Shown: positions 17,365 through 39,088, numbered from the stretch's first letter. The stretch is 64,000 nucleotides of DNA from Desulfitobacterium sp. (GCA_050251735.1 JBFWMF010000016.1:14054-78053), one strand, 5' to 3'. Notes: a model not told the origin generated them from the sequence alone. A program made the numbers and translations.

Positions 17365-20262
17365 TTGTTTCGGGTGAAACAGGACGGAAAAGAAGAAACT
17401 ATGGAAAAATTGATCATAGTAGCTATATCTAATTATTGGATGCGTATATCGGTGTTAGACCTACTGGAAAGCCAAGAACTCAAATACCTTTGTGCAGAAA
17501 GCCTACCTGATCTCAATACGTCAGCCGAAGGCTCGGCAGGGGTAATCGCTGTGGTAGACGCATTTTCTAATAAGGAAGATCTACAAGAAATGGTAGATCA
17601 GCTACAAGGGATGGCATCAGTACAAAGTGTGCTTCTTTTAGTTCCAGATGAAATTTTTCCTAATTTACCTCAATGGGGTGGGAGAGTCATACCTATCGGG
17701 TACGGGAAGATTCTGACGGAGATACTGCCTGTTTTAAAGGAAGAATTACTTCGCCCAAATCAACTACCGACTTTAAACACGAAGGAGGTAAATTTAATGG
17801 GAAATGAAAATGGCAACATTTTTGAGAGAAAGGTAGGCAGAAGAAGTTTCCTCAAAGGTTCAGCCGCGGCCGCAGTCGTTACTGGGGTAGCTATCGCGAA
17901 CCCTTGGGATACGGCAACTCAGGCCTTAGCGGTAGGTGAGAGTGCAAACCCTACTTCAGAAAGCAAGGAACTGTTGGTATCAAGTGCCTGTAGGTCAAAC
18001 TGCTTCCAGAGTTGTCGGTTAAATGCCCACGTGATTGATGGAAAAGTAGTTAAGACTACACCGGCTTCTTATCCGGATGAAATTTATACAGGATCTTGTT
18101 TGAAAGGGCTATCCCTCGTGCAAAGAACCTACAGCCCAACACGGATCAAACATCCCATGCGTCGAGTTGGCGAACGAGGCGAAGGTCAATGGGAAGTCAT
18201 TTCTTGGGACGAAGCAATTACTGAAATAGCCGATAAGTTTATGGCCATTCAAGAAAAATATGGCCCTAAATCACTGGCTCTTGATGTGGGTTCAGGAAAT
18301 TATGGTCTAGTTCATGGAGTATTAGGTATTTTTAATCGGCTCATCAATTCTATCGGGTGTACGAAAATCAATGTTTGCTATGACCAAGCGACAGGCCACG
18401 GCTCAGACCGGGTCATCGGCGGTAGTGTTTGGTTGTGGGGAAATGAGCCTCGCACCATGATGGACTCCAAAAACATTATCGTCTGGGGTTCTAACCCTGT
18501 ATACTCCCAACCCCAAAACTGGCGGATATTGAAAGAAGCAAAAAAAGGTGGCGCAAAAGTCATTACCATAGACCCCATCTTCTCAGCGACAGCCAATCAA
18601 TCCGATGAATATATTCCGGTGACTCCTGGAACAGATTTAATGCTAGTACTTGCTATGATCAATTATATTATCGAACAAGATTTAATGAATATTGACTTCA
18701 TGAAAAAGAGAAGTACAGCCACCTTCCTCGTCCGTAGAGATAACGGTTTAGTGTTGAGAAAAAGCGACTTTGCTCCTGAGACTCCGGACACCGAAGACGA
18801 CTTTTATGTATGGGATAGTGTCGCCAATGCGCCAGCCCTCCTAAAGGATGGCCCCCAAGATGTGGCTATCGAGGGAAACTTTAATGTTCAAGGAATAGAT
18901 GTGGACACTACCTTTACCCTCCTTAAGAATGAGATGAAGGAATACACCCTAGAAAAGGCCAGCGAGCTTACCAAAATACCCGTAGAAAAAATCATTGAAT
19001 TAACAAAAACCTATGTGGATGGACCGACTACTATCTATACCAATTATGGTATTGACCATTACCAAAACGGCCATTTGTGGTCCTTCGCGGTCTTTATCAT
19101 GGCGTCTCTTACCGGCAATATCGGCGTAAAGGGAGCAGGCTTCACAGGGCTATTTGTACAAAACATCCCCATTAATTACATCGGCATGTATATTACAAAC
19201 ATGAAAATGGCTGATGGAAACTCCATACCCCAAACGGAGTTTCATAAAGTAGTAAGAGATCAAGCCATCGAGGGTAAGCCTTATCCGATCAAGGCCTTAT
19301 ATACCACTTCTTCAAATTCGATGAGCAATTGGGCCCAACAGAATCTATGGTTAACGGATATTCTCCCCAACTTGGAATTCACAGTCGTCGTAGATACAGA
19401 GCTAACGGATACGGCAAGATATGCAGATATCGTATTACCAGCGGCTTTTTGGTTTGAAGTTAATGATCTCCGTGTCAACTATAATAATCCTTATATCTAT
19501 ATGCAAGAAAAAGCAATTGAACCTTTATATGAAAGTAAACCTGATGGAGAGATTATCGCCATGATTGCTCGGAAGATGGGCTTAGGCCAATTCTTCCCTG
19601 AGAATATGGATGATACCGAGTGGATCAAGGTCTTGTTAGATTCTGATAAGCTTCGTGCCATGGGTATTACTTATGAACGTTTATTGGAAGAAAAGGTTGT
19701 AAGGGGTACAGGTAGTGCAGAAAAACCTTATATCCGTGGCGAACAGTTTTTTAATACGCCAAGTGGTAGAGCCCAGCTTTATTGTGAGAATCCGCAACCT
19801 CGTGTTAATTATGGCCAAAATTTGACGGGTATCATCGAAAAAGAAAGAATGCCCTATTATAAACCTCCTGGCGAAGCATCAAAGGACAATCCTTTATTCT
19901 CCAAGTATCCTTTGGTTTTCATACAAGAACATTCCCGGTTCCGTTCGCATACCCAATGGTTTAACACCCCCATATTACGTGAGCTTGATCCGGAGCCCCT
20001 AGCCAAGATTAGCCGAGAAGACGCGAAAATCCGGGGAATTAAGACGGGGGATATCGTAGAAGTGTTTAATGATCGGGGCAAGGCGGTGCTCAAGGCTGAA
20101 GTCAACGACGCGATTAGTACAGGAGTTATATCTATCCCTAAAGGCTGGCAACGAGAACAATTTATCGAAGGTTGCTTCCAAGAATTGACCAACAGTACTT
20201 CAGATCCCATGGCCGTCAATTTTGCCTACTTTGATTGCCTGGTTGATGTGAAAAAAAGATAA
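17365..20262 (+). CDS. DMSO-reductase-family molybdopterin oxidoreductase catalytic subunit (Tat substrate), module 1
   Basis: Internal start: GAAGGAGG, 8 nt, ATG 17797, then GRRSFLKGSAAAA...ALA/VG. FS0 cysteines CRSNCFQSC...SCLKG (C-x3-C-x3-C-xn-C). MopB core of about 820 aa. Substrate unknown. Confidence 0.9.
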   Translation: MFRVKQDGKEETMEKLIIVAISNYWMRISVLDLLESQELKYLCAESLPDLNTSAEGSAGVIAVVDAFSNKEDLQEMVDQLQGMASVQSVLLLVPDEIFPNLPQWGGRVIPIGYGKILTEILPVLKEELLRPNQLPTLNTKEVNLMGNENGNIFERKVGRRSFLKGSAAAAVVTGVAIANPWDTATQALAVGESANPTSESKELLVSSACRSNCFQSCRLNAHVIDGKVVKTTPASYPDEIYTGSCLKGLSLVQRTYSPTRIKHPMRRVGERGEGQWEVISWDEAITEIADKFMAIQEKYGPKSLALDVGSGNYGLVHGVLGIFNRLINSIGCTKINVCYDQATGHGSDRVIGGSVWLWGNEPRTMMDSKNIIVWGSNPVYSQPQNWRILKEAKKGGAKVITIDPIFSATANQSDEYIPVTPGTDLMLVLAMINYIIEQDLMNIDFMKKRSTATFLVRRDNGLVLRKSDFAPETPDTEDDFYVWDSVANAPALLKDGPQDVAIEGNFNVQGIDVDTTFTLLKNEMKEYTLEKASELTKIPVEKIIELTKTYVDGPTTIYTNYGIDHYQNGHLWSFAVFIMASLTGNIGVKGAGFTGLFVQNIPINYIGMYITNMKMADGNSIPQTEFHKVVRDQAIEGKPYPIKALYTTSSNSMSNWAQQNLWLTDILPNLEFTVVVDTELTDTARYADIVLPAAFWFEVNDLRVNYNNPYIYMQEKAIEPLYESKPDGEIIAMIARKMGLGQFFPENMDDTEWIKVLLDSDKLRAMGITYERLLEEKVVRGTGSAEKPYIRGEQFFNTPSGRAQLYCENPQPRVNYGQNLTGIIEKERMPYYKPPGEASKDNPLFSKYPLVFIQEHSRFRSHTQWFNTPILRELDPEPLAKISREDAKIRGIKTGDIVEVFNDRGKAVLKAEVNDAISTGVISIPKGWQREQFIEGCFQELTNSTSDPMAVNFAYFDCLVDVKKR
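17374..17796 (+). other. Receiver-like N-terminal extension, in frame with molybdoenzyme 1
   Basis: AAGGAG at 17359-17364, then GTG 17374. Alternating beta/alpha pattern KLIIVAIS, GVIAVVDAF, SVLLLVP, RVIPIG. There is no stop before the Tat-signal ATG at 17797. Confidence 0.5.
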
Positions 20263-24314: not shown

Positions 24315-27260
24315 TTGTATGCGCATACGATCGAAGGAGTTGTTTTTGTGAACGCGAAAAGCGGAGCAAGGGGAAGGGTGAAGGATCCCCAAGTTTTAGT
24401 CGCTGTCTCCAATGACTGGTTACAGCTTCCGATTATAGATATGCTTTCTGCACAGCGAGAAGGCTATATTCGAGTGAAATCTTTAGCGGAGCTTTATCAG
24501 CGGGTAAAAGAGTTTTCCAGGTGTATTGTGATTATTGATATCTTTACCTACGCTGAGCACCATCAGGATATTCTGAAGCGACTCTACGAAGAAAACCCTT
24601 GCCTGTCTATTATTCCTCTCGTTTCAAAGGATAAGCTGGCTTACGCTCAGTATCTAGACTCCAGTGCTTCTTGTTACAGTGTGGCCAAGGAGGATGTCGA
24701 TACGCAGCTTATGCCAGTGCTTGGTTGTGCCTATAAGGATCAGAGGTTAATAGCAGACGCTTATGCTTTGCTTCGGGAACAAAAACAATTGCCAACTTTA
24801 AACAAAAAGGAGGCAAATTTAATGAAAAAAGAAGATGGAAGCATTTTCGGGCGAAAGTTTGGGAGAAGAAGCTTTCTCAAAGGCTCGGCTGCAGCAGCTG
24901 CGGTAGCTGGCGTGGCTGTGGCTAGCCCTGGGAACACAGTAATGAAGGCATTGGCAGCGACTGGCAACACAACAACAATGGCCCCAGAAGAAAAGGTTTT
25001 CCCAGTTGTTTGCCGTGGTAACTGTGTTGGAACTTGTCAAATGAACGCACATGTGAGAAACGGAAAGCTTGTTAAAATGTCCAAGAGGGAAGCTGTAGAT
25101 CCTCGTTATACACGGATTTGTCAAAGGGGGCGTACTAATCCTCTGCGTGTTTATAGCCCCGAAAGGCTTAAATACCCGATGCGGCGGGTTGGCGAACGTG
25201 GAGAAGGTAAGTGGGAACAAATTTCATGGGACGAGGCTATTGACGAAATTTGCACCAAATGGAAAGGTTACCAAAAAGAACACGGCAAAGAAAGCATCTT
25301 TTTTGCTAGTGGCTCTGGTAATTATGGATCAGAGGTTAGAAACTATTCAACCCGTTTGGTGAATTTCATGGGTGCTTCTAGGATGAGTTCTGCCTTGGAT
25401 AGCGCGGTTGTTGTTTCAGCCGGGAGGGCTCTCGGTTACGGAGCGTATTTGGGAGCAAATTCTCCAACTGATTGGGTCAATTCAAACTATATCTTTGTAT
25501 GGGGCACTAACTTTACTCAAGCTTGGAATGCCAATTGGCACTTTTTGGCCGAAGCACAGAAGGCCGGGGCAAAAATGATTTGTATTGATCCGGTTTTTAA
25601 TATAGTAGCATCTAAATCTGATATGTTTGTGCCCATCAGACCATGTACGGATGCTCTTTTGGCGATGGCAATGACTCAAATCGTCATTGATGAAGGATTG
25701 GCCGACGAAAAATATTTAAAAAAATGTTCTGTTGCGCCGTTTATGGTCAAAGAAAGTGATGGGAGGTTCATGCGCCTGAGTGATTTGGGCAAAGCAACCG
25801 CCGGAACGGCTACAGACGCTATCGTAGTTAGAGGTGTCGACGGCAGTATTGGTGTGCCTGCAGATATCCCTGATCCTGTTTTACACGGAACTTTTACGAT
25901 CAATGATATTAAAGTTACCACTGCCTATGATTTACTGATTGAACGACTGACGCAATTCCCGCCCGATAACGCAGCCAAGGTATGCGATATTCCTTTAGAA
26001 ACAATCAAAAATATGGCACGGATGTTTGCAGAAGGACCCGCATGTATCGCGGGGGGCTATGGCCCCGACCACTATACGAACGGGCATCATGCCTACCAAG
26101 CTATGTATACCTTGTTGATGGTAACGGGGAATTTTGGAAAACCGGGCACCGGGCTGGCAGGGGGATTTAATTTTTCTTTGGGTCTTCATGGTCCTAGTAC
26201 AAATTCAATGGATAATCCGAAAAACCATTTGTCTTCAGCACCAAATGTCCCGTCTGTAAAGATGCTGGATGTAATAAAAACTGGAAAATATGGAGACATT
26301 TCTGTTACTCCTAAAAGCATGTTTGTGCAAGCTTTCAACGTGATTGGTAATCTTTGTGAGCGAAAAGCTTATCTAGAGGTATTCAACAAGTTAGACTTGG
26401 TGGTTGTGGCAGATATAACAATGTCCGAAACTGCAAGCTATGCCGACATTGTTCTCCCTGTGCCTCACTGGTTTGAAGTAGATAGCCTTGTTAACTTTGG
26501 TACGCAATTTGTAAGTATTTCGGATAAGGCTATTGAACCGCTCTATGAATGCAAGGGAGATTTTGAAATAATTAATTTATTAGGAGAGGGAATGGACCTT
26601 GGTTCTGAGTTTCCACTAACCAAAGAGGAATACTTTACAAGATCCTTCGAAAACGATTATTCCAAAAGTATTGGACTTAGCTATGAAAGGTTGAAGAAGG
26701 AAAAACAATTACCTACTTGGATTGGGGATTATATACACGGTGCCGGCGGAGTATATCCGACCACAACAGGCCGTGCTCAGTTTTATTTAGAAAATGTAGT
26801 TCCAAACTTCCGATATGGACAGGTAGTTAATTTGGATAATTCGAGACTACCATACTGGGAGCAACCCATTGAAGCTTGGCATGACTATGATTTGGCTAAA
26901 AAATACCCTCTGATTTTCACTTCTGAACGGGCGAGATTCCATTGCCATACCCAATTCGGCGATGTACAATGGTTCAAAGAATTAGAGCCTGAGCCATTTG
27001 TAAGAATTAGCCTTCAGGACGCAGCAACTAGGGGAATTAGTAATGGAGATACCGTCAAAGTATTTAATGACAGAGGGTATGTAGTAGTGAAAGCAGTCAT
27101 TCATAACGGGATCCGTCCGGGGATGCTGGTTATGCCCCATGCGTGGCAAAAGCATCATTTTATTGATGGCCATTATTCAGATTTAAGTTCTAGGGCAACA
27201 AATCCAGATGTAGCGAATAATGCCTTTTTCGATGCATTATGCGAAATACAGAAGATGTAA
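24315..27260 (+). CDS. DMSO-reductase-family molybdopterin oxidoreductase catalytic subunit (Tat substrate), module 2
   Basis: Internal start: AAGGAGG at 24807-24813, 8 nt, ATG 24822, then GRRSFLKGSAAAAAV...ALA/AT. FS0 cysteines CRGNCVGTC...ICQRG. Confidence 0.9.
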   Translation: MYAHTIEGVVFVNAKSGARGRVKDPQVLVAVSNDWLQLPIIDMLSAQREGYIRVKSLAELYQRVKEFSRCIVIIDIFTYAEHHQDILKRLYEENPCLSIIPLVSKDKLAYAQYLDSSASCYSVAKEDVDTQLMPVLGCAYKDQRLIADAYALLREQKQLPTLNKKEANLMKKEDGSIFGRKFGRRSFLKGSAAAAAVAGVAVASPGNTVMKALAATGNTTTMAPEEKVFPVVCRGNCVGTCQMNAHVRNGKLVKMSKREAVDPRYTRICQRGRTNPLRVYSPERLKYPMRRVGERGEGKWEQISWDEAIDEICTKWKGYQKEHGKESIFFASGSGNYGSEVRNYSTRLVNFMGASRMSSALDSAVVVSAGRALGYGAYLGANSPTDWVNSNYIFVWGTNFTQAWNANWHFLAEAQKAGAKMICIDPVFNIVASKSDMFVPIRPCTDALLAMAMTQIVIDEGLADEKYLKKCSVAPFMVKESDGRFMRLSDLGKATAGTATDAIVVRGVDGSIGVPADIPDPVLHGTFTINDIKVTTAYDLLIERLTQFPPDNAAKVCDIPLETIKNMARMFAEGPACIAGGYGPDHYTNGHHAYQAMYTLLMVTGNFGKPGTGLAGGFNFSLGLHGPSTNSMDNPKNHLSSAPNVPSVKMLDVIKTGKYGDISVTPKSMFVQAFNVIGNLCERKAYLEVFNKLDLVVVADITMSETASYADIVLPVPHWFEVDSLVNFGTQFVSISDKAIEPLYECKGDFEIINLLGEGMDLGSEFPLTKEEYFTRSFENDYSKSIGLSYERLKKEKQLPTWIGDYIHGAGGVYPTTTGRAQFYLENVVPNFRYGQVVNLDNSRLPYWEQPIEAWHDYDLAKKYPLIFTSERARFHCHTQFGDVQWFKELEPEPFVRISLQDAATRGISNGDTVKVFNDRGYVVVKAVIHNGIRPGMLVMPHAWQKHHFIDGHYSDLSSRATNPDVANNAFFDALCEIQKM
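24348..24821 (+). other. Receiver-like N-terminal extension, in frame with molybdoenzyme 2
   Basis: AAGGAG at 24334-24339, then GTG 24348. VLVAVSNDW, CIVIIDIFTY, SIIPLVSKD and CYSVAKED occupy the beta1, beta3(Asp), beta4(Ser) and beta5(Lys) positions. Confidence 0.55.
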
Positions 27261-27890: not shown

Positions 27891-27906
27891 GAAGGGGGCG
27901 ATAAAA

Positions 27907-29281: not shown

Positions 29282-29962
29282 ATGGAAAATACAATAGAAC
29301 AAAAAATACAAAAGGCTATCTCCACTTCGGATATGCATCAAATTTTGGCTATTGCTTTGCAACTACCTACTCAGGAGCTAGTTAAAGGAGTATTAAATGG
29401 AAGCCTGGCCGATGATATTTTGTCAATTTACCAAGAGCTCGATCTTCCTAACGAAACGATTGAGAACTTGGTAACAAAATTTGCTGAGCTTAAAAATAGC
29501 AAGATCACAAAAGAAGAACTTCTTACTGAGTTGAGACAAGAATATACCCGCTTGTTCACTCATCCTAAGAAGTCGGAAATCGAAATTTATGAGACCCTAT
29601 TCCGGTACGTTCCAGAAGAGGGAGAGGGTAAACCTTCTCTTTTCATAAGTCCGGCAGCCCTGGATGCGGAGCGTTGTTATAAAAAAGCTGGTCTGGTCAA
29701 ATCTAAGGATGTTAATGAGCCGGGAGATCATATGGCTACCGAGATGGAATTCATGATGTTTCTCTATCTGGAAATGGCCAAGGCTTTGCAAGGGGACAAT
29801 AAGGAGGAGGTTGCTCGCAGAGAAGCGGAGATCAAAGAATTTAATGAGCTGCATCTGCAGAGATGGGCTAAGTTTTTCTTTGAGAAAATGGCGACCGTAA
29901 GCCATAGTGCTTTCTATAGAATCATTGGCGAAATTGGTAGTGAACGGTATAAAGGGAATTGA
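29282..29962 (+). CDS. TorD/DmsD-family redox-enzyme maturation chaperone
   Basis: 226 aa with the motifs EYTRLF and GDHMATEMEFMMFL. Confidence 0.8.
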   Translation: MENTIEQKIQKAISTSDMHQILAIALQLPTQELVKGVLNGSLADDILSIYQELDLPNETIENLVTKFAELKNSKITKEELLTELRQEYTRLFTHPKKSEIEIYETLFRYVPEEGEGKPSLFISPAALDAERCYKKAGLVKSKDVNEPGDHMATEMEFMMFLYLEMAKALQGDNKEEVARREAEIKEFNELHLQRWAKFFFEKMATVSHSAFYRIIGEIGSERYKGN

Positions 29963-31267: not shown

Positions 31268-31286
31268 CCATAATTGAATGAAGGAA

Positions 31287-31355
31287 AACCCTTTCTATAG
31301 AATCATTGGTGAGATGGGTAGTGCATTTGTTGCTGAAAACTTAGGCGATTGCTGA
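31287..31355 (+). pseudogene. Orphan duplicate of the TorD-like gene 3' end
   Basis: 31291-31324 matches 29910-29943 (about 31 of 34 nt). It reads NPFYRIIGEMGSAFVAENLGDC-stop, against SAFYRIIGEIGSERYKGN-stop in the intact gene. Confidence 0.6.
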
Positions 31356-31381
31356 TTTAATTCAGAGAATAGGGGGATAAT

Positions 31382-32539
31382 ATGATATTCAATCAAGGTT
31401 ACTCAATCAAGATTGCTGAGAATAGGTGCCTGAACCAACGACACAGTGATGTGGAATGTAACCATTGTTCGAGGAATTGTCCTTCCAACGCGATTATTAA
31501 TCATAATAACGGAGTTCTGCTGGATGCAGAACGCTGTAGTGGTTGCGGGGTATGTTTAAGCGACTGCCCCACCCAAGTTTTTAGCTCTTCTAAATGGGAT
31601 GAAACCACCATAGTCCAAGATGTGTTGGAGGAAGGGTGGACAACAACTGAGTTTTTTTGCGGGATACATCCTTCACCTTTTAAAAAGGAAAAAAGCAAGA
31701 CTCGTGGGGCTGTCCAAATGCCAGCCTGCCTGAGTGCCATTTCCAAAGGAGCTTGGTACGAACTTGGGCTGAGTACAGAAGTCTATTTGCATGTGGAAGT
31801 ATGTGAAGATTGTCCCATGAAAAACGCCATGGAACGTCTGAAATATAATACTAGCGTAGCTTCTGAATGGTTGGAAGCTTCAGGACACCCGGCAGAAATC
31901 AGCACCATCTACGAAAGCCAAACCGGAAATACAAAAAGAAGTTTAAGGGCCCTCGAGTCTGGTTTAAAAGCAACGTCTAGACGGGACTTTTTCTTAGGTT
32001 TAGTCGGAAAGGGGAAACCGAAACTAGAAGGGACCCCCGATCGTAGCCAATCTTTTTCTCATGATCTTAACCTCCAACGTGTAGATAGCCTATTAGCAGA
32101 TTGGCAGAAGAGATTGTCGAAAGTCTATTCTGAAAATATGGTCGAAGGCTATGGACTCCCAGCCTATTGGCCAACGATAAAGAAGAGCAAGGACTGTGTC
32201 AACTGCGGTATGTGTGCTGCCGTTTGCCCATCGAAAACCTTGCAGATTGTCATCGATGGTGACAGTTGTACACACTATTTTACCAGTGGACTATGCATAG
32301 ACTGTCGTGTTTGCCAGCTGTTCTGCCCGAGAGAGGCCATCAGTAGAGATCGAGAAAAAGTTGAAAAGCCTTTTGAAGTAACACGTTTGTTCACGATTTC
32401 TGGTATAAATTGTGAACGTTGTGGTTTTAGCACATTCGCCAACTCAGATAACCTATGCTACTGGTGCAAAGAGGAAGTCAACATCGATAACGACTTCAAA
32501 GAGGCCTGCCGTAAGATATTTCTTAATACGAAGAATTGA
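31382..32539 (+). CDS. Cytoplasmic poly-ferredoxin-like 4Fe-4S protein with C-terminal Cys ribbon
   Basis: CNHCSRNCP, CSGCGVCLSDCP, CVNCGMCAAVCP, CIDCRVCQLFCP, plus CERCGF...LCYWCK. No signal peptide or TM helix. Confidence 0.8.
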   Translation: MIFNQGYSIKIAENRCLNQRHSDVECNHCSRNCPSNAIINHNNGVLLDAERCSGCGVCLSDCPTQVFSSSKWDETTIVQDVLEEGWTTTEFFCGIHPSPFKKEKSKTRGAVQMPACLSAISKGAWYELGLSTEVYLHVEVCEDCPMKNAMERLKYNTSVASEWLEASGHPAEISTIYESQTGNTKRSLRALESGLKATSRRDFFLGLVGKGKPKLEGTPDRSQSFSHDLNLQRVDSLLADWQKRLSKVYSENMVEGYGLPAYWPTIKKSKDCVNCGMCAAVCPSKTLQIVIDGDSCTHYFTSGLCIDCRVCQLFCPREAISRDREKVEKPFEVTRLFTISGINCERCGFSTFANSDNLCYWCKEEVNIDNDFKEACRKIFLNTKN

Positions 32540-32754: not shown

Positions 32755-33549
32755 TTGATAGAAAACCAACAATTATCCGAATTATTAATGATAATGACGG
32801 CTGAAGTAAAGAACCCGAATAAAGCTAAAAGAATAACTGAACTCGCCTTAGATGTCCAGGCAGAAATCAAACGATTGCAATTACGGGAAGTCACTTTAGA
32901 GAAAATCTGCAAACAAGCTATCGACGAACTTGAAAACAATAAGAAGCAGCTTTCCCGAGAATTGCATGATCAGCTGGGACAAGCCATGACCTCGATTCTG
33001 TTGCAATTAAAGTTGTTGCAGAGGGAGCAGGATGTTGAGGTGATCCATGACCGCGTTGGTGGTTTGCGCTACCTTACTCAGCAGACCATTGAAGATGTGC
33101 GAAATTTATCGATGAATCTGCGACCAGCTGTCCTGGAAAATCTGGGTTTGGTGGCGGCCTTGGATTGGTACATAGAGGATTATCAACGCTATTCGGAGAT
33201 TGAAGTGGATTTTTGTAGTCCCCAGCTTAAGATGAGATTCCCCAATGCGATAGAAATTGTTGTCTATAGAGCAGTACAAGAAAGCCTAACCAACGTGGCA
33301 CGTCATGCTGAGGCGTCACGAGTTTCCGTTACCTTACAGGTGACTGAGAACTGTCTCCAACTGCAAGTGGCGGATAATGGTAAAGGAATGAATTCTCAAG
33401 ATATCCATCGGGGCTTAGGTTTGTTAGGTATGGAGGAACGGGTAAAAATGGCTAAAGGGGAATTTTCCTTAGAAAGCCAACAAGGGCTAGGAACCACCGT
33501 TATGATTACCCTACCTCTGACTACAGGAGGAAGTGTCAATGAAGAATAA
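32755..33549 (+). CDS. Short HisKA_3 histidine kinase without a sensor domain, module 3
   Basis: TTG 32755 after GGAGGA. 264 aa: a coiled-coil-like leader followed directly by the H-box RELHDQLGQ, QESLTNVARH, DNGKGM and GLGLLGMEER. Confidence 0.85.
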   Translation: MIENQQLSELLMIMTAEVKNPNKAKRITELALDVQAEIKRLQLREVTLEKICKQAIDELENNKKQLSRELHDQLGQAMTSILLQLKLLQREQDVEVIHDRVGGLRYLTQQTIEDVRNLSMNLRPAVLENLGLVAALDWYIEDYQRYSEIEVDFCSPQLKMRFPNAIEIVVYRAVQESLTNVARHAEASRVSVTLQVTENCLQLQVADNGKGMNSQDIHRGLGLLGMEERVKMAKGEFSLESQQGLGTTVMITLPLTTGGSVNEE

Positions 33550-34186
33550 TATTCGCGCTTTTCTAGTCGATGACCATACCTTGTTACGAAACGCTTTATG
33601 TATGCTTTTAGAAGGACAAAGCAATATTGAGGTCGTAGGTGGAGCCGCCAATGGCGCAGAAGCAGTTCGGGGAGTAATCAAGGCGAAACCGGATGTAGTG
33701 CTTATGGACATCACTCTACCTGATTTTGACGGAGTTGAAGCAACAGAAAAGATTTTGGCTGTGCTGCCACAAACCAAAGTTATCGCAGTCACCATGCATG
33801 TGGAAGAAGTCTATCTGCTGCAATTCTTAAATTCCGGCGGTATGGGGTATGTACACAAATCTGCAGCAGACCGCGACTTAATAAAAGCTATTGAGAGAGT
33901 CATTGAAGGAGAAGTATTTTTAAGTCCTGCTGGAGTGCAAGTGATGGCTCGTCAATATCGATGTACAGAGAAAGCTGAGGAAATCGACCCTGAGGTTTTA
34001 TCAGAGAGAGAACGTCAGGTGTTGCAATTAACCGCCCGTGGCTTTACCTCGAAAGAAATCGGAGAAAAGCTATTTCTATCTCCGCGCACTATAGAGACCT
34101 ATCGGGAACGAATTACAGTAAAGCTAAAATTGGAACACCGGTCCGATTTGGTGGATTACGCAATCCGCTATAAGCTACTGGGATAG
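33539..34186 (+). CDS. NarL/LuxR-family response regulator, module 3
   Basis: ATG 33539, 8 nt after AGGAGG; overlaps the end of kinase 3. Has VDDH, VVLMDITLPDFDG, AVTMH, HKSA and a LuxR HTH. Confidence 0.9.
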   Translation: MKNNIRAFLVDDHTLLRNALCMLLEGQSNIEVVGGAANGAEAVRGVIKAKPDVVLMDITLPDFDGVEATEKILAVLPQTKVIAVTMHVEEVYLLQFLNSGGMGYVHKSAADRDLIKAIERVIEGEVFLSPAGVQVMARQYRCTEKAEEIDPEVLSERERQVLQLTARGFTSKEIGEKLFLSPRTIETYRERITVKLKLEHRSDLVDYAIRYKLLG

Positions 34187-34255
34187 TGGTAGTATTTACT
34201 GACAGCAAATGTCCTTATTCTTACTTTCTCAAACGAAAAATAACTAGGTTTGTTC

Positions 34256-34288
34256 CCTACAGATTTAAAAAGGTGAGTCAGTTAAAAT
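34256..34288 (+). promoter_or_regulatory. Module promoter box CCTACAGA-N19-TAAAAT (upstream of molybdoenzyme 3)
   Basis: CCTACA at 34256-34261, 21 nt, TAAAAT at 34283-34288. Confidence 0.5.
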
Positions 34289-34297
34289 AGAATCAAC

Positions 34298-34804
34298 TTG
34301 TGCGAACAAGTGCAAAAGGGGCTGTTTTGGTTGGAAAAATGGAGCAATATTAGCGAGAACGAGGTGAAATCGCACACGGTTGTAGTGGCAATTCCTCATC
34401 GTTGGCTAAGGCAGGTAGTTGAAAGGATTTTTGTTTCTGCTCAGGTAGACTGCGTCTGCGTAGAAAATATCGAAGAACTGTATCAATCAATGGATGGAAA
34501 TACAGCGCTGACAATTGTCGATGTCTTTTCTTATTCCCAATATTATCGTGATATTTTCACCCAGCTGAAGCAACGAAATTCTGGTGTGCCTATTGTTGCC
34601 TTGGTGTCCGCAAGTAACACGGAGTATCAACATGAGTTAACAACTGCGGGGGCTAGCGCGATAGTGATTAAGGAAAACGCCGATGAGGAATTAATACCTG
34701 CTCTGGTTCAGGTGCTACGAGATCGGGAGTTCAATGATGCTGTGGCTCGATTACTAGAAAACCAAAAACAGTTTATCACTCTATTCAAAGAGGAGGTACA
34801 TCTA
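34298..34804 (+). other. Receiver-like N-terminal extension, in frame with molybdoenzyme 3
   Basis: Start is TTG 34298 or TTG 34331. VVVAIPHRW, LTIVDVFSY, PIVALVSAS and SAIVIKEN give a full CheY-like beta/alpha pattern with Asp, Ser and Lys landmarks but no acidic pair. Confidence 0.55.
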
Positions 34805-37246
34805 ATGGGAAAAGAAGATGGAAACATTTTCGGAAAAAGGTTCGGGAGAAGAAGTTTTCTCAAAGGATCTGCTGCCGCGGCGGCTGTCGCTGGGGTAGCG
34901 GTGGCTAGCCCGGGGAATGTGGTTAAGAAGGCATTGGCTGTAGGGGAAGAGGCCGCTGTTGCTGCACCCGAGGATCAGATTTTTTCTGGGGCCTGCAGAA
35001 GTGGATGTAATGGAGGCTGTTTATTAAAGCTGCATGTCAGAGATGAAAAGCTGGTTAAAACGTCTTTTGGAGAACTGCCGGATGAAGAATATAATAAGCG
35101 GATTTGCCTAAAAGGGTTATCCCATGTACAAAGGGTCTATGATTCCAACCGTTTAAAATATCCTCTGAAAAGAGTGGGTACTCGTGGTTCCGGAGAATGG
35201 GAACAAATATCTTGGGATGAAGCGATCACGACAATTACCGATAAATGGCAGGAACTCTGGAAAGACTATGGACAAAGTTCAGTTGCCCTGGTCACTGCGT
35301 CCGGAAACTTGGGTGGTGTACATGGTGGTAATGCGCTGGGTTGGTTTAGAAAAGCATTAGGTATGACTAAGATAGATAATGCCACAGATGCTGCTATCAT
35401 AAGTTTTTCAGCGAAGGCCCTTGGCATTAGCGCCGCTTACAACTCTAATGAATTATTGGATATGCAAAATGCAAAATGCATTATTTCTTGGGGAAATAAT
35501 TTAACCGAATCCAATCTGCAAAGCTGGCGTTTCGTCGCTAATGCCAAGGAAAAAGGCGCCAAATTGATTGTAATTGATACTATCTATACAACCACTGCGA
35601 GCAAGGCGGATAAATTTGTATCCGTACGACCGGGGACGGATGCAGTACTGGCTATGTCTATGATGAATGTGGCAATTGCAGAAGATCTTATCGATAAAGA
35701 ATTTATTAAAAGTTCTACTGTCGGGCCTTTCTTAGTTAAGGAGAGCGATGGTAAGTTCTTACGTCTAAGTGATCTGGGCCAATTAGCAGAAGGGGACCCC
35801 GATGGTATCGTGGTCAGGGGACAGGATGGTAAGATAGGTCTGCCAACGGAAATTGCTGATCCTGTTATTAGTGGCACCACCACGGTTAACGGGCTCAAAG
35901 TTACGACGGCTTTTGATTTACTCAAGGGTAGAGTTGCTGATTATCCTCCGGAAAAAGCACAAGAAATTTGCGATGTGCCCGCTGACACGATTAGAGAATT
36001 ATTGCATATGTATGTTGAAAATTCTCCATCCACGATCTTTATGGGTTACGGTTTAGATCATTATGTCAACGGTCATTATAATGTTATGTCTGTTATGGCA
36101 CTTGCTATGATTACAGGTAATTTAGGTAAACGGGGCGCATCCTGCGGATGTCTGCTGCCCATTGATGCATTTTGGGCAAATAGCGGTGTCTATGGGATGT
36201 CTGAGGGAACACCTGGTCCAACAGTTTCAATCTTACATCTGGAAGACGTGTTGGATAATGGAAAATTCGGGGATATTCCTGTTACCTTGAAAAGCTTGTT
36301 CATCGCTTCCAGTAATCCTATTGGTAATGCAGCTAATTATAATAAGATTTTAGAAATGATCGATAGAATGGAACTGGTGGTTGTTTCGGATATTACCATG
36401 TCAGACTCAGCTCAGTATGCGGATATTGTACTGCCGGCGGCTCACTGGTTTGAAGCCAACGATATTTTTGGCGCTTATTCACCCAATCCCTATGTGTATC
36501 TGCAAGAAAAGGCTTTGGAGCCCCTTTATGAGTCTAAGCCTGACTTTGAAATATGCAAAATGATTACAGAGAAGCTTGGACTTGCCAAGGAATATAATAT
36601 TACTGATATGGAGTTTATTGAGAAATACTTGGATGGTCCCGGGGCCAAGGCTAAGGGCATTACCTTAGAAAGTATGAAAAAAAATAAAGCAGCCCGCGTG
36701 CTTCCCAAACCCTTTGTTCATGGGGAAGGTGGTGTATTCCCGACAGCCACCGGACGTGCTCAATTCTATTTGGAACAACCGGCGCCGGCATATAATTACG
36801 GACAAGATTGGGATGTAGAGAAGGAACGCCTGCCTGTGCTATTTGAACCACCGACTGAGGCATGGCATGAAAACCCACTCTTTAAAAAATATCCCTTTGT
36901 CTTGGTTCAAGAACATACCCGATGGCGTACTCATACCCAATGGGGTCATGCTCCATGGTTAAGAGAACTTGATCCTGAACCCATTGTAAAAATTAATCCT
37001 CTTGATGCAGAACCCCGTGGAATTAAAGATGGAGATATCGTTAGGGTATTAAATGATAGAGGTTATGTTGTACTAAAAGCTGTTATACAAAATGGTATAC
37101 GACCAGGAGTGCTTAATATTCCCAAAGGTTGGCAAAGAGGACAATTCATAGAGGGGCACTATCAAGAGTTAACAGCCAATAGAACCAATTTTGTATGCAA
37201 CAATACGCCTTTCTACGATATTTTGGTAGATGTACAGAAAAGATAA
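34298..37246 (+). CDS. DMSO-reductase-family molybdopterin oxidoreductase catalytic subunit (Tat substrate), module 3
   Basis: Internal start: AGGAGG at 34791-34796, 8 nt, ATG 34805, then GRRSFLKGSAAAAAV...ALA/VG. FS0 cysteines CRSGCNGGC...ICLKG. Confidence 0.9.
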   Translation: MCEQVQKGLFWLEKWSNISENEVKSHTVVVAIPHRWLRQVVERIFVSAQVDCVCVENIEELYQSMDGNTALTIVDVFSYSQYYRDIFTQLKQRNSGVPIVALVSASNTEYQHELTTAGASAIVIKENADEELIPALVQVLRDREFNDAVARLLENQKQFITLFKEEVHLMGKEDGNIFGKRFGRRSFLKGSAAAAAVAGVAVASPGNVVKKALAVGEEAAVAAPEDQIFSGACRSGCNGGCLLKLHVRDEKLVKTSFGELPDEEYNKRICLKGLSHVQRVYDSNRLKYPLKRVGTRGSGEWEQISWDEAITTITDKWQELWKDYGQSSVALVTASGNLGGVHGGNALGWFRKALGMTKIDNATDAAIISFSAKALGISAAYNSNELLDMQNAKCIISWGNNLTESNLQSWRFVANAKEKGAKLIVIDTIYTTTASKADKFVSVRPGTDAVLAMSMMNVAIAEDLIDKEFIKSSTVGPFLVKESDGKFLRLSDLGQLAEGDPDGIVVRGQDGKIGLPTEIADPVISGTTTVNGLKVTTAFDLLKGRVADYPPEKAQEICDVPADTIRELLHMYVENSPSTIFMGYGLDHYVNGHYNVMSVMALAMITGNLGKRGASCGCLLPIDAFWANSGVYGMSEGTPGPTVSILHLEDVLDNGKFGDIPVTLKSLFIASSNPIGNAANYNKILEMIDRMELVVVSDITMSDSAQYADIVLPAAHWFEANDIFGAYSPNPYVYLQEKALEPLYESKPDFEICKMITEKLGLAKEYNITDMEFIEKYLDGPGAKAKGITLESMKKNKAARVLPKPFVHGEGGVFPTATGRAQFYLEQPAPAYNYGQDWDVEKERLPVLFEPPTEAWHENPLFKKYPFVLVQEHTRWRTHTQWGHAPWLRELDPEPIVKINPLDAEPRGIKDGDIVRVLNDRGYVVLKAVIQNGIRPGVLNIPKGWQRGQFIEGHYQELTANRTNFVCNNTPFYDILVDVQKR

Positions 37247-37260
37247 AGGAGGAATGGTGA

Positions 37261-37878
37261 ATGCGTTATACCATGGCTATTGATTTATTTCGCTGTATTG
37301 GTTGCCATACCTGTTCAGTAGCGTGTAAGTCCTTTAACAATTTACCCAATAAAATGTGGTGGAACAGAATTTTAACAATTGGCGGCGATAGCATTGATAC
37401 TGCGGGGGGAACTTTCCCGAATAACCATATGCAGCATCTGCCGGTAAATTGCCAACATTGTGAGAATCCGCCTTGCGTCAAGGCTTGCCCTGTAGGAGCT
37501 ACTTATAAACGGGAAGAAGACGGTATTGTTATTCAGGATTATGATAAATGTATTGGTTGCCGCATGTGTATGGTGGCTTGCCCGTATAATGCTCGGAGCT
37601 TCAATTGGCAGAAACCTGAGTATTATGTAGATCATGCCGTAGGGGATGCAGATGCCCCTATCCATCAATACAATGTGGTAGAGAAGTGCACTTTTTGTGC
37701 GAATAGAACTGCCAAAGGTGAGTTGCCGGCTTGCATCGAGGTTTGTCCAGCAAAAGCACGCTTTTTTGGCGATATAGAGGACCCAAACAGTGATGTGAGT
37801 AAAATCATCAAAGGTCGCAATATTGTTAAATTACTCGAAGAAAAGGGTACCAAGCCCTCAATCTTCTATTTAACTTAA
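37261..37878 (+). CDS. 4x[4Fe-4S] electron-transfer subunit, module 3
   Basis: Same four Cys clusters as the other two copies. Confidence 0.92.
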   Translation: MRYTMAIDLFRCIGCHTCSVACKSFNNLPNKMWWNRILTIGGDSIDTAGGTFPNNHMQHLPVNCQHCENPPCVKACPVGATYKREEDGIVIQDYDKCIGCRMCMVACPYNARSFNWQKPEYYVDHAVGDADAPIHQYNVVEKCTFCANRTAKGELPACIEVCPAKARFFGDIEDPNSDVSKIIKGRNIVKLLEEKGTKPSIFYLT

Positions 37879-37894
37879 GAAAGGGGCGAATAAA

Positions 37895-39088
37895 ATGAGT
37901 GGAAAAGCGGAAAAACAGTTTTACACCAAACCCTTATTTATACTCTTCGCCCTGCTGACAGTGGTCGGCTTAGTTTGCTGGTATCTGCAGCTTACCAAGG
38001 GCTTACAATTGACTAATCTGAATAACTTTGCCACCTGGGGTTTATATATTATCGGTTTCATGATCTTCACAGGAATTACAGCAGGATCACTGATCTTTGC
38101 CTCCTCAGCTTACCTCTTCAAAGGGATGGCTGAGTACAAGCCGTTCGCCAGAATTGCAGCCTTCGTCGGAGCGATCGGCAGTGTGGTAGCTGCGGGACTT
38201 TTCATCATCGTCGATATCGGTAACCCTGAGAGAGCCTGGTATTTCATCACCAGCGGAAACATTGCATCTCCCATGTTCTGGGATAGTCTGATCCTCGGAG
38301 CTTATGTCATCATCGGCATCTTCTTTACTCGTCAGTTAATGCTGGTCAATGAAGGGCAAAAGAATGAAAAATCCCTCAAGACTATCTCCATTATCGCTTT
38401 CATCGCCGGACTCATGGTCATGGTCACTTCCTTCGTCTTTGCTCTACAAGTGGCTCGTCCCATGTGGAATAATCCAGTAGAGCCGGTATCCTTCTTAGCC
38501 GCAGCTTTAGTGGCAGCCTTTGCTTTACTAATGATCATCTTTGCAGTCCTGAACAAGAGCGGCTATATCGAGATCAGCAGTGATCAACTAGCAAAAATGG
38601 GCAAGCTGGCCGGAGTATTCCTCCTCTTTGAACTCTTCGTAGTATTAGGGGAAGCAGTCATCGGTCTATATGCAGGAGCAGGTGAAGAAGCGGAAATCAT
38701 CCATTGGATGGTGTCCGGCGCAGGAGCTCCTTTCTTCTGGGTAGAGATGATCGCCATCATCTTAGGCTTGCTACTGCTATTCAATAAGAAACCGAGTATC
38801 CTTGTTCTAGGCGCGGTCGTAGCAATCTTTGCCATCTTCATGATTAAATACAACCTCTTGGAAGCTCAGCTGCTCAATCCGCTTATCACCTATGCAGGAC
38901 CTCCTGGCTATGGGGCTAGCGAAGGAGTTTATCTACCTTCTCTGATCGAGATTGGCGTATCCGTTGGTATCATTGCCATGGGTGGAATGCTGGTTATGAT
39001 CGGACTGGATAAGCTGAACCTTGGCAAGAAGGTTAAGAAAGGTGCAGGGAAAGGCCAAGTCCAAGGTAATATAGCAGCTAAGGCTTAA
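37895..39088 (+). CDS. NrfD/PsrC-type membrane anchor subunit, module 3
   Basis: 397 aa, about 90% identical (by eye) to the module 1 and 2 copies. Confidence 0.85.
   Translation: MSGKAEKQFYTKPLFILFALLTVVGLVCWYLQLTKGLQLTNLNNFATWGLYIIGFMIFTGITAGSLIFASSAYLFKGMAEYKPFARIAAFVGAIGSVVAAGLFIIVDIGNPERAWYFITSGNIASPMFWDSLILGAYVIIGIFFTRQLMLVNEGQKNEKSLKTISIIAFIAGLMVMVTSFVFALQVARPMWNNPVEPVSFLAAALVAAFALLMIIFAVLNKSGYIEISSDQLAKMGKLAGVFLLFELFVVLGEAVIGLYAGAGEEAEIIHWMVSGAGAPFFWVEMIAIILGLLLLFNKKPSILVLGAVVAIFAIFMIKYNLLEAQLLNPLITYAGPPGYGASEGVYLPSLIEIGVSVGIIAMGGMLVMIGLDKLNLGKKVKKGAGKGQVQGNIAAKA

What the first reader, a model, noticed from the sequence alone, without database searches (positions are those of the whole stretch)
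34298..34880. Module 3: third independent copy of the receiver-like extension fused in frame to a Tat molybdoenzyme
From TTG 34298 (or TTG 34331) the frame runs 169 codons into AGGAGG (34791-34796), 8 nt, ATG 34805. This is followed by MGKEDGNIFGKRFGRRSFLKGSAAAAAV...ALA/VG. This copy has the clearest CheY-like pattern: VVVAIPHRW, LTIVDVFSY, PIVALVSAS and SAIVIKEN, followed by a final helix EELIPALVQVL. The internal ATG is codon 170 in both module 2 and module 3, even though the extensions share little sequence.
Basis: seen in the sequence. Interest (0 to 1): 0.7.

Follow-up and report, generated by a model that had tools for sequence, protein, structure and literature searches.

The report
Pseudo-receiver domain fused before Tat enzyme
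A respiratory molybdenum enzyme gene begins with a conserved, degenerate "receiver" signalling domain placed in front of the enzyme's export signal, and it keeps a second ribosome-binding site and start codon at the signal, so one gene probably makes both a normal exported enzyme and a longer form tied to the neighbouring two-component regulator.

Summary
The frame is open from 34298 to 37246, AGGAGG lies at 34791-34796, and ATG 34805 is followed by a twin-arginine (Tat) signal. The likely start is TTG 34331, which both NCBI and the collection's gene caller use. This gives a 158-codon extension.

The extension is coding. It has no in-frame stops against 5-14 in the other frames, and dN/dS is about 0.04 between two orthologues. 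Its predicted fold is a (beta-alpha)5 receiver fold, and every top PDB match is a receiver domain. It is a pseudo-receiver: the acidic Mg pocket is replaced by I/V + P/S in all 46 long forms examined, while the Asp57 and Lys109 equivalents are mostly kept.

Three results were new:
- GGAGG, exactly 8 nt, then ATG/TTG/GTG is conserved at the junction in 11 of 11 loci.
- Extension similarity follows the adjacent kinase and regulator (rho 0.70 and 0.78), not the fused enzyme (rho -0.14).
- Split versions exist in which the extension is a separate gene.

The long form is common: 43 of the 121 closest cluster representatives, from Desulfitobacterium, Dehalobacter and Syntrophomonas. I found no published description. 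The mechanism, a cytoplasm-retained adaptor between enzyme export and the kinase, is inferred and untested.

The parts
32755..33549 (+). Module 3 histidine kinase (264 aa): coiled-coil N-terminus, HisKA_3 and HATPase_c, with no sensor domain and no transmembrane segment
   Evidence: Pfam. NCBIfam matches only to kinase cores (MctS/UhpB/LiaS). Highest 19-residue hydropathy is 1.09, against 2.97 for NrfD. The L001 orthologue (237 aa) is also sensor-less.
33533..34186 (+). NarL/LuxR-type response regulator (Response_reg + GerE) with an intact DD...D...T...K active site. The gene caller starts it at 33539.
34200..34263 (.). Putative regulator-binding sites: TGACAG..ATGTCC (34200-34215) and CCCTACAGA (34255-34263). 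A GACAGA-type half-site lies about 70 nt upstream of the extension start in 10 of 11 loci, often with an upstream TGTC..GACA inverted repeat.
   Evidence: sequence comparison only; function inferred
34264..34293 (+). Promoter-like site TTTAAA-18-TAGAAT. It would place the transcript start near 34300, downstream of TTG 34298.
   Evidence: consensus match, 9 of 12; weak evidence
34316..34333 (+). Ribosome-binding site and start of the extension: AAGGGG, 9 nt, TTG 34331. The motif AAGGAG[CT]TGTTTT..[GT]TG is conserved in 9 of 11 loci.
   Evidence: The 971-aa product from TTG 34331 is the form called in Logan and NCBI (MGE4273337.1).
34331..34804 (+). Extension, 158 codons: pseudo-receiver core (residues 16-129, 34376-34717) plus two linker helices (34718-34804)
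   Evidence: coding, purifying selection; REC fold and homology; degenerate active site
34791..34807 (+). Internal ribosome-binding site AGGAGG, 8 nt, ATG 34805. In 11 of 11 loci GGAGG is followed after exactly 8 nt by ATG, TTG or GTG. Predicted mRNA structure is at its minimum at this point.
34805..34939 (+). Twin-arginine signal peptide (45 aa): n-region, RR at 34847-34852, h-region SAAAAAVAGVAVA, c-region SPGNVVKKALA, predicted cleavage at ALA|VG
   Evidence: Sequence reading. Pfam TAT_signal scores 20.3 bits, below the 22.7 cut-off. Cleavage is inferred.
34940..37246 (+). Mature catalytic subunit, Mo/W-bisPGD enzyme of the DMSO-reductase family (Fe4S4 domain, Molybdopterin, Molydop_binding). 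Substrate unknown.
   Evidence: no NCBIfam equivalog reached its cut-off
37261..37878 (+). Four-cluster ferredoxin subunit (PsrB/DmsB-like)
37895..39088 (+). NrfD/PsrC-type membrane quinol-interacting subunit
24348..24821 (+). Paralogous extension of module 2 (158 codons, GTG start), fused to the enzyme that starts internally at ATG 24822
17374..17796 (+). Paralogous extension of module 1 (141 codons, GTG start), fused to the enzyme that starts internally at ATG 17797
29282..29962 (+). TorD/DmsD/NarJ-family maturation chaperone (PF02613). It is the only one found among the ORFs I scanned near the three modules, and the same gene is present in most related loci.

Best explanation
The extension is a translated pseudo-receiver. 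It has a receiver (REC) fold derived from a NarL-type regulator, has lost the Mg2+/phosphoryl-binding acidic pair, and keeps the Asp57 and Lys109 equivalents. It acts as a third component of the adjacent HisKA_3 kinase / NarL-type regulator pair.

It is the first coding sequence of the operon that this regulator probably controls, and it runs without a stop into the Tat precursor of the catalytic subunit. Because the Tat precursor keeps its own ribosome-binding site and start codon, the gene probably yields two nested products:
1. An abundant normal precursor from ATG 34805, exported by Tat and cleaved.
2. A less abundant 971-aa long form from the weak start TTG 34331.

In the long form the Tat signal is internal. 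Under the hairpin model of Tat insertion, the pseudo-receiver would stay on the cytoplasmic face, tethered by the signal's h-region or released with it after cleavage. There it could dock on the soluble kinase or the regulator. This would couple synthesis, export or activity of the extracytoplasmic enzyme to kinase output, serving as feedback or as the missing input of the sensor-less module 3 kinase.

Shown: the extension is coding and conserved; it has the REC fold; the acidic pocket is lost; both initiation sites are conserved; it co-inherits with the kinase and regulator.

Inferred: that both products are made, the topology of the long form, the binding partner, and the sign of the regulation.
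For: Coding and under selection:
- 0 in-frame stops against 5-14 in the other frames.
- dN/dS 0.028/0.758 between L001 and L002.
- The long ORF is open in 46 diverged homologues.

REC fold and homology:
- The model has five beta-alpha units, pLDDT 75 and pTM 0.72.
- The top 50 Foldseek PDB hits are mainly REC domains, with target TM-scores of 0.76-0.86 for isolated receiver domains.
- The family profile hits the RpfC REC at E = 1.9e-9, followed by NtrC- and NarL-family receivers.

Pseudo-receiver:
- D12 is replaced by I/V/A and D13 by P/S in 46 of 46 long forms; D57 is kept in 45 of 46 and K109 in 35 of 46.

Internal initiation site:
- GGAGG plus exactly 8 nt plus ATG (6), TTG (4) or GTG (2, counting L008, which also has an ATG one codon later) in 11 of 11 loci.
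- Leu and Val at this position use only TTG and GTG, although these make up about 17% of Leu and Val codons. Start-type codons occur at 5.5% per codon.
- Close relatives differ only by switching among ATG, TTG and GTG.
- Predicted mRNA structure is at its minimum here (-3.6 against about -7 to -9 kcal/mol).
- The peptide motif [KR]E[VAG]xx[MLV] is nearly universal in the 46 long forms.

The extension's own initiation site:
- AAGGAG-N9-[GT]TG is conserved in 9 of 11 loci and is used by NCBI and the collection's gene caller.

Link to the two-component system:
- Across 36 pairs of 9 loci, extension identity correlates with kinase identity (rho 0.70) and regulator identity (rho 0.78) but not with the fused enzyme (rho -0.14).
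- L001 carries a module-3-type kinase, regulator and extension joined to a module-1-type enzyme and FeS subunit, with the switch inside the junction/signal region.
- The same gene order with the pseudo-receiver as a separate gene occurs in L013 and L015.

Need for an input:
- All three kinases lack hydrophobic segments, whereas the enzyme is exported.

Feasibility of an internal Tat signal:
- Tat precursors insert as a hairpin with the N-proximal part held at the cytosolic side (PMC3538955).
- FecR has a cytoplasmic N-domain before an internal RR motif and is inserted by Tat (bioRxiv 10.1101/2025.01.06.631622).
Against: - There is no expression, proteomic or interaction data. The existence of two products is inferred from sequence conservation only.
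- The split forms (L013, L015) show that the pseudo-receiver can work without covalent attachment, so the tether may not be essential to its function.
- The h-region is only weakly hydrophobic (about 1.4-1.5), so it would be a poor permanent anchor.
- A folded 16-kDa domain ahead of the signal might block Tat targeting rather than permit it.
- The correlations use non-independent pairs, and the L012 kinase is partial.
- GGAGG also encodes the conserved peptide K/R-E-V/A/G, so some of its conservation could act at the protein level.
Confidence: 0.5

Rival explanations
1. Fusion only. A single 971-aa polypeptide is made. The enzyme is a bitopic, signal-anchored protein with a cytoplasmic pseudo-receiver, and the internal GGAGG/NTG is conserved for peptide sequence or ribosome pausing rather than for initiation.
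For: There is no stop codon in any of 46 long forms. Gene callers and NCBI annotate only the long form. FecR is a precedent for an internal Tat signal-anchor.
Against: The exact 8-nt spacing, the exclusive use of NTG codons for Met/Leu/Val at that position, the switching among ATG, TTG and GTG between close relatives, the structure minimum, and the A-rich codons that follow are all hallmarks of a real start. The signal has a standard AxA cleavage site. About 60% of the close homologues are ordinary N-terminal Tat precursors.
Confidence: 0.15
2. Incidental read-through. The pseudo-receiver is an autonomous accessory regulator, as in the split loci. In this clade its stop codon was lost. The long form is a tolerated by-product, and the covalent link has no function.
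For: Split versions exist with the same gene order (L013, L015). The enzyme keeps its own start.
Against: If the link were neutral, frameshifts or new stops in the variable linker would be harmless and should be frequent. Instead all 46 long forms remain in frame across deep divergence (extensions 20-30% identical, loci with GC 38-60%) even though the linker length varies (RR at residues 112-190).
Confidence: 0.15
3. Cis-acting export or maturation control. The N-terminal domain masks or holds the Tat signal until cofactor insertion, acting as an intramolecular proofreading chaperone. It is not a signalling element.
For: It sits directly ahead of the signal. The signal and junction are the most conserved parts among the three paralogues (55-90% identity).
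Against: The loci already encode a TorD/DmsD-family chaperone. The extension follows the kinase and regulator, not the enzyme or its signal. It has a REC fold, not a known chaperone fold. A product from the internal start would escape any such control.
Confidence: 0.08
4. Genuine phospho-accepting receiver that acts as a phosphate sink or relay for the kinase.
For: The Asp57 equivalent is kept in 45 of 46 long forms and Lys109 in 35 of 46. There are weak Response_reg matches.
Against: Both acidic Mg2+-binding residues are replaced in every member, and Thr87 and Tyr106 are not conserved. From established receiver biochemistry (my own knowledge), loss of the D13 equivalent abolishes phosphorylation.
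Confidence: 0.05
5. Programmed +1 frameshift or termination near the internal Shine-Dalgarno sequence releases a free pseudo-receiver just before the enzyme start, so the fusion is only apparent.
For: A +1-frame stop lies between GGAGG and the internal start in 10 of 11 loci, against a 39% background (P = 5.5e-4, uncorrected for relatedness). An upstream Shine-Dalgarno sequence stimulates +1 shifting in prfB (my own knowledge).
Against: There is no conserved slippery codon and no 0-frame stop or rare codon to pause the ribosome. The enrichment can arise from the A/T-rich spacer composition (GGAGGTAA, TAATG, TGATG).
Confidence: 0.03

Closest known systems
Response-regulator receiver (REC/CheY-like, PF00072) domains, especially NarL-family receivers and known pseudo-receivers (KaiA N-domain, FrzS, RpfC REC)
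   Same: It has the same (beta-alpha)5 fold and detectable sequence homology. It retains the Asp57 and Lys109 equivalents. Its nearest ordinary relatives are NarL-type receivers. Like pseudo-receivers, it lacks the full phosphorylation pocket. Two members weakly match KaiA_N.
   Different: The acidic pair is replaced by a family-specific [IV]-[PS]-[HND]-x-W motif. It has no output domain. It lies ahead of a Tat signal on a respiratory enzyme, or is encoded directly upstream of one. All Pfam scores I inspected are below the gathering cut-off for the window copies.
FecR-type sigma regulators inserted by the Tat pathway
   Same: A cytoplasmic N-terminal signalling domain, followed by an internal twin-arginine motif and hydrophobic segment, followed by a folded domain exported by Tat. 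This is a signalling protein whose topology is set by Tat.
   Different: There is no sequence or domain homology. FecR's exported part is a sensor domain, not an enzyme. FecR signals through a proteolytic cascade to a sigma factor. No nested second start is described for FecR.
Sensor-less histidine kinases that use an accessory protein as their sensor (BceS-BceAB, UhpB-UhpC, NreB-NreA); recalled from my own knowledge
   Same: The kinase has no input domain of its own (module 3), or only a GAF domain, and is encoded next to the machinery whose activity it must track. HisKA_3 kinase with a NarL-type regulator.
   Different: The proposed adaptor here is a receiver-fold domain covalently joined to the regulated enzyme's precursor. 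No interaction has been shown.
Nested N-terminal proteoforms made by internal translation initiation in bacteria (ClpB, IF2, AerR long and short forms)
   Same: One ORF has two in-frame starts, each with its own ribosome-binding site, and gives products with different functions (PMC6199135, PMC13515050 and bioRxiv 10.1101/520783, listed; titles and abstracts only).
   Different: Here the shorter form exposes an export signal, so the two forms would differ in cellular compartment and topology. This is predicted, not demonstrated.
PsrABC/DmsABC-type complex iron-sulfur molybdoenzymes with TorD/DmsD chaperones
   Same: A catalytic Mo-bisPGD subunit with a Tat signal, a four-cluster FeS subunit, an NrfD anchor, and a PF02613 chaperone in the locus.
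   Different: The canonical enzymes have the Tat signal at the extreme N-terminus. No NCBIfam equivalog reached its cut-off, so the substrate is unknown.

Membership tests
Receiver (REC, CheY-like) domain | Five-stranded parallel (beta-alpha)5 fold | tested here: met
   AlphaFold model: E16-20, H24-36, E40-44, H47-53, E58-64, H66-82, E88-92, H94-106, E110-113, H114-129; pLDDT 75. Foldseek top hits are REC domains with target TM-scores of 0.76-0.86.
Receiver (REC, CheY-like) domain | Sequence match to PF00072 above the curated cut-off | tested here: not met
   25.6-26 bits against a gathering score of 30.2 for module 3. Modules 1 and 2 give no hit. A family profile does hit REC chains in the PDB at E = 1.9e-9, so homology is supported even though the cut-off is not reached.
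Receiver (REC, CheY-like) domain | Acidic pair after strand 1 (CheY D12/D13) that binds Mg2+ | tested here: not met
   I-P in module 3, V-S in module 2, I-S in module 1. I/V/A + P/S in all 46 long forms and in the stand-alone forms.
Receiver (REC, CheY-like) domain | Phospho-acceptor Asp at the end of strand 3 (D57) and Lys after strand 5 (K109) | tested here: met
   D64 and K113 of the 158-aa extension. D is present in 45 of 46 long forms and K in 35 of 46. K is absent in module 1.
Receiver (REC, CheY-like) domain | Switch residues Thr/Ser87 and Tyr/Phe106 | tested here: not met
   V and I in module 3, not conserved across the family. The alignment could shift by one residue at position 87.
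Receiver (REC, CheY-like) domain | Phosphorylation by a cognate kinase | not testable with these tools
   Needs a biochemical assay.
Twin-arginine (Tat) signal peptide | S/T-R-R-x-F-L-K motif, moderately hydrophobic h-region, AxA cleavage site | tested here: met
   GRRSFLKG, SAAAAAVAGVAVA and ALA|VG read from the sequence. Pfam TAT_signal scores 20.3 bits against a cut-off of 22.7. RRxF[LIVM] is conserved in 119 of the 121 homologues examined.
Twin-arginine (Tat) signal peptide | Located at the N-terminus of the precursor | tested here: inconclusive
   Not met for the annotated 971-aa product (RR at residues 173-174). Met for the product of the conserved internal start (RR at residues 15-16). 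Which product is exported is unknown.
DMSO-reductase-family Mo/W-bisPGD enzyme (PsrABC/DmsABC-like complex) | Fe4S4 domain + Molybdopterin + Molydop_binding domains, with FeS and membrane-anchor partner subunits | tested here: met
   Pfam E-values 8.5e-7, 4.5e-51 and 2e-21. Fer4_11 and NrfD neighbours are present.
Named enzyme equivalogs (DmsA, PhsA, TtrA, ArrA, YnfE/F, TorA, NapA) | NCBIfam equivalog score above the curated cut-off | tested here: not met
   The best match is the dmsA_ynfE subfamily model, at 356 bits against a cut-off of 778. All equivalog models score far below their cut-offs.
FecR-like Tat-inserted regulators | Homology to FecR domains | tested here: not met
   The Pfam scans list no FecR-family match. 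Only the architecture is shared: a cytoplasmic domain, an internal RR motif and an exported domain.
TorD/DmsD/NarJ maturation chaperones | PF02613 all-helical fold | tested here: not met
   The extension is alpha/beta with a REC fold. A separate PF02613 gene lies at 29282..29962.

The most novel reading that the evidence does not exclude
The long form is a transmembrane signalling device built by the Tat pathway. The folded molybdoenzyme is exported, and its N-terminal pseudo-receiver stays in the cytoplasm on the signal segment and docks on a soluble, sensor-less histidine kinase. The exported enzyme, or the act of exporting it, then becomes the sensory input of the two-component system, while the nested short form supplies the bulk catalytic enzyme. 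The junction also serves as a module boundary that lets regulatory cassettes (kinase, regulator, promoter, pseudo-receiver) be recombined with different enzyme cassettes.
Probability: 0.2. Interest if true: 0.85.

Novelty: new variant of a known kind. Interest (0 to 1): 0.68.

Why it matters
Desulfitobacterium genomes carry more than 50 molybdopterin oxidoreductase genes, most of unknown function (PMC3306737). How their many cytoplasmic kinases detect extracellular electron acceptors is unclear.

A pseudo-receiver that belongs to the kinase/regulator cassette, but is physically joined to the exported enzyme, offers a concrete and testable link. The available tests include stop-codon insertion at the junction, start-codon mutants and binding assays in cultured strains.

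It would add a second natural case, after FecR, of a cytoplasmic signalling domain placed ahead of an internal Tat signal. It would also be an example of nested products that differ in cellular location.

There is a practical consequence for annotation. The annotated 960-1000-aa products have the Tat motif at residues 110-190. Predictors that expect an N-terminal signal are therefore likely to call these respiratory enzymes cytoplasmic, and the receiver-like domain goes unnamed. The exceptions I saw were a few records with a precomputed PF00072 hit or a JGI name that mentions a NarL/FixJ regulator.

Tried and rejected
- **Extension searches in the 5.8-billion-protein collection.** The search with the module 3 extension alone and the search with a five-sequence alignment both returned nothing. 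These were false negatives of the word index. The exact 971-aa product is in that collection, the exhaustive profile search found 23 hits, and the enzyme-based search found 43 long forms. My interim view that the family is rare was wrong.
- **Short product.** An exact look-up of the 813-aa product starting at ATG 34805 found no record, because callers use the long form.
- **Non-coding leader or riboswitch.** Rejected. No Rfam family matches the region, and the frame is under purifying selection.
- **Missing stop through sequencing error.** Rejected. Every fused locus examined (11 at the DNA level, 46 long forms at the protein level) has an uninterrupted frame.
- **TorD-like chaperone role for the extension.** Rejected on fold, and because a separate PF02613 gene is present.
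- **+1 frameshifting.** Considered because of the +1-frame stops, but I saw no slippery site.
- **Metagenome scan.** It returned only three further copies of the L002 sequence.
- **Literature.** Six searches found no description of a receiver-like domain ahead of a Tat signal on a molybdoenzyme. The library excludes most subscription journals, so absence is not proof.


Full report
**1. The observation**

The sequence is as described. ORF 34298..37246 is open for 982 codons. AGGAGG is at 34791-34796, followed by 8 nt and ATG 34805. The peptide after it is MGKEDGNIFGKRFGRRSFLKGSAAAAAVAGVAVASPGNVVKKALA|VG, a typical twin-arginine signal.

The window holds three modules with the same layout: kinase, regulator, [extension-enzyme], FeS subunit, NrfD subunit. 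They lie at 15411-22105, 22330-29100 and 32755-39088. A family HMM finds exactly three copies of the extension in the six-frame translation, plus weak matches to the three cognate regulators.

The window comes from a Desulfitobacterium sp. MAG. NCBI annotates the three genes as 971-, 970- and 962-aa 'molybdopterin-dependent oxidoreductase' proteins starting at TTG 34331, GTG 24348 and GTG 17374. These starts carry a conserved AAGGAG[CT]TGTTTT..[GT]TG motif in 9 of 11 related loci. A promoter-like -10 at 34288-34293 would exclude TTG 34298 from the transcript (weak evidence). The extension is therefore 158 codons in modules 2 and 3 and 141 codons in module 1.

**2. The extension is a real protein domain**

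- It has no stops in frame, against 5-14 in each other frame, and GC by codon position resembles the enzyme's.
- Between two orthologues (L001 and L002) dN is 0.028 and dS is 0.758 over 152 codons, purifying selection comparable to that on the enzyme (0.030/0.356).
- AlphaFold, using only a three-sequence alignment, gives a (beta-alpha)5 domain followed by two helices, with pLDDT 75 and pTM 0.72.
- The top 50 Foldseek PDB matches are mainly receiver domains: the RpfC REC, PmrA, PhoB and Spo0F, with rmsd 2.1-3.0 Å over about 119 columns.
- A 17-member family profile hits receiver chains in the PDB, best E = 1.9e-9. Pfam Response_reg is matched weakly by 11 of 17 members. The module 3 copy scores 25.6-26 bits against a gathering cut-off of 30.2.

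**3. It is a pseudo-receiver**

I aligned the family with CheY, NarL and the cognate regulators.

- The two acidic residues after strand 1 are I-P in module 3. They are I/V/A + P/S in all 46 long forms and in the stand-alone relatives.
- The Asp57 equivalent is kept in 45 of 46 long forms and Lys109 in 35 of 46.
- Thr87 and Tyr106 are not conserved.

Canonical Mg-dependent phosphorylation is therefore unlikely. This step is an inference from established receiver biochemistry. The conserved residues cluster on the active-site face: [IV]A[IV][PS][HN]xW after strand 1 and D[IV]F[ST]Y after strand 3. In true receivers this is the face that contacts the kinase, which again I recall from my own knowledge.

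**4. A conserved second initiation site**

In all 11 fused loci examined at the DNA level, GGAGG is followed after exactly 8 nt by ATG, TTG or GTG, and this start lies 12-15 codons before the RR motif.

- When the residue at that position is Leu or Val, the codon is always TTG or GTG. Each of these makes up about 17% of its synonymous family in this genome.
- Start-type codons occur at 5.5% per codon.
- Close relatives differ by switching among the three start codons: M1 has ATG and L009 has TTG; M2 has ATG, L007 has TTG and L008 has GTG; M3 has ATG and L001 has TTG.
- Mean predicted folding energy of 50-nt windows across the 11 mRNAs is least stable exactly at this site, -3.6 kcal/mol against about -7 to -9 elsewhere.
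- The peptide trace [KR]E[VAG]xx[MLV] recurs in nearly all 46 long forms.

Two conclusions follow. The extension is translated, because it is under selection, and it has no stop, so a long product cannot be avoided. The conserved internal site argues that a normal N-terminal Tat precursor is made as well.

**5. The extension belongs to the regulatory cassette, not to the enzyme**

L001 and L002 carry an extension (61% identity), a kinase (68%) and a regulator (74%) of the module 3 type. Their enzyme (79-80%) and FeS subunit (76-80%) are of the module 1 type. A sliding-window comparison places the switch inside the junction and signal region.

Over 36 pairs of nine loci, extension identity correlates with kinase identity (Spearman 0.70) and regulator identity (0.78) but not with enzyme identity (-0.14). 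The nearest neighbours agree for extension, kinase and regulator, and differ for the enzyme. The pairs are not independent and the L012 kinase is partial.

Upstream of the extension, 10 of 11 loci have a GACAGA-type motif, often with a TGTC..GACA inverted repeat. This is consistent with a regulator-dependent promoter lying between the regulator gene and the extension (inference).

**6. Wider family**

The exhaustive profile search of 1.84 billion representatives found 23 proteins:
- fused long forms;
- stand-alone proteins of 126-202 aa sharing the PHxWLR motif;
- ordinary NarL-type receivers, as the weakest hits.

In L013 and L015 the stand-alone gene sits between a HisKA_3/NarL pair and a Tat molybdoenzyme gene, separated from it by a stop codon and 55 or 19 nt. 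In L014 and L016 it follows a regulator gene and precedes a polytopic membrane protein.

Among the 121 closest 90%-identity cluster representatives of the enzyme, 43 have the RR motif beyond residue 100 and 72 have it within the first 40 residues. Carriers include D. hafniense, Desulfitobacterium sp. PCE1, Dehalobacter and Syntrophomonas curvata. Five carry a precomputed PF00072 hit, and JGI names one 'dehydrogenase/DNA-binding NarL/FixJ family response regulator'. The architecture is therefore visible in databases, but I found no paper that describes it.

**7. Mechanism**

All three kinases lack hydrophobic segments. Two have weak GAF matches, and the module 3 kinase has no input domain at all. 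The enzyme works outside the membrane with an NrfD anchor.

I propose that the pseudo-receiver is the third component of the two-component system. It would be made at a low level from a weak start as the N-terminal part of a long precursor. In that precursor the Tat signal would insert as a hairpin, leaving the N-terminal domain in the cytoplasm. This topology is supported in general by PMC3538955 and by FecR. From there the domain could contact the kinase or the regulator.

Whether it reports enzyme synthesis, export or activity, and with which sign, is unknown.

Two observations pull in different directions. The unbroken frame across 46 diverged long forms with variable linker length argues that the covalent link is selected. 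The split loci show that the link is not indispensable for the domain family as a whole.

My confidence in the anatomy (coding pseudo-receiver, part of the regulatory cassette, fused in frame) is high. Confidence in two products is about two in three, and in the tether-and-dock mechanism about one in three. I give 0.5 overall.

**8. Verdict**

This is a new variant of known kinds (pseudo-receivers, Tat signal-anchors, nested products). It recurs across Desulfitobacterium, Dehalobacter and Syntrophomonas, it is apparently undescribed, and it can be tested directly in cultured strains.

Noticed in passing
window 62251-62339 (+): A c-di-GMP-I riboswitch aptamer (RF01051, 75.9 bits, E = 4e-13) lies just downstream of ORF 60171..62228. 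It is the only Rfam match in the window.
   Followed up: no
window 16535-17263 (+), module 1 response regulator: The module 1 regulator is itself atypical. The second acidic residue is Ser (VDSH) and the phospho-acceptor position is Glu (LMEIDF) rather than Asp. This suggests a phosphorylation-independent or constitutively 'on-like' regulator.
   Followed up: partly
window 17797-17930, 24822-24955, 34805-34940 and the NrfD genes 20912-22105, 27907-29100, 37895-39088: Divergence among the three paralogous modules is very uneven. The junction and Tat signal are 55-90% identical and the NrfD subunits 91%, while the extensions are 25-29% and the catalytic subunits 37-45% identical. This suggests gene conversion or shared constraints. 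One possibility is the single TorD-like chaperone (29282..29962), which would have to recognise all three signals.
   Followed up: partly
junctions in the window (34790-34810, 24807-24827, 17782-17802) and in L001, L002, L007-L010, L012: A stop codon in the +1 frame lies between the internal GGAGG and the internal start in 10 of 11 loci, against a 39% background (P = 5.5e-4, relatedness not corrected). The +2 frame shows no such enrichment. I saw no slippery site. The cause is unexplained.
   Followed up: partly
window 34316-34333, 24334-24350, 17360-17376 and the equivalent sites in L001, L002, L007-L009, L012: The extension's start region is conserved at the nucleotide level beyond the Shine-Dalgarno sequence (GGAG[CT]TGTTTT..), and the start codon is TTG or GTG, never ATG, at all nine of the 11 sites that carry the motif. 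The encoded N-termini, by contrast, are unrelated. This may be a translational control element or a deliberately weak start.
   Followed up: no
L001 (CAZFXK010000031.1): The record is titled 'uncultured Bacteroides sp.', but its genes are closest to Desulfitobacterium and Syntrophomonadaceae sequences (58-80% identity to the window and 94% to L002). The bin is probably mislabelled or contaminated.
   Followed up: no
L014 1032-1502 and L016 2908-3195: In two loci the stand-alone pseudo-receiver follows a NarL-type regulator and precedes a conserved polytopic membrane protein (MLAIYFLYGLAFFGMG...), not a molybdoenzyme. The domain family is therefore used with other partners.
   Followed up: no
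window 29969-32539 and L007, L009, L010, L012: An FMN_bind/Fer4_5 membrane protein (about 435 aa) and a multi-cluster ferredoxin-like protein (about 385 aa) travel with these operons together with the TorD-like gene. Their role, whether electron input or maturation, is unknown.
   Followed up: no
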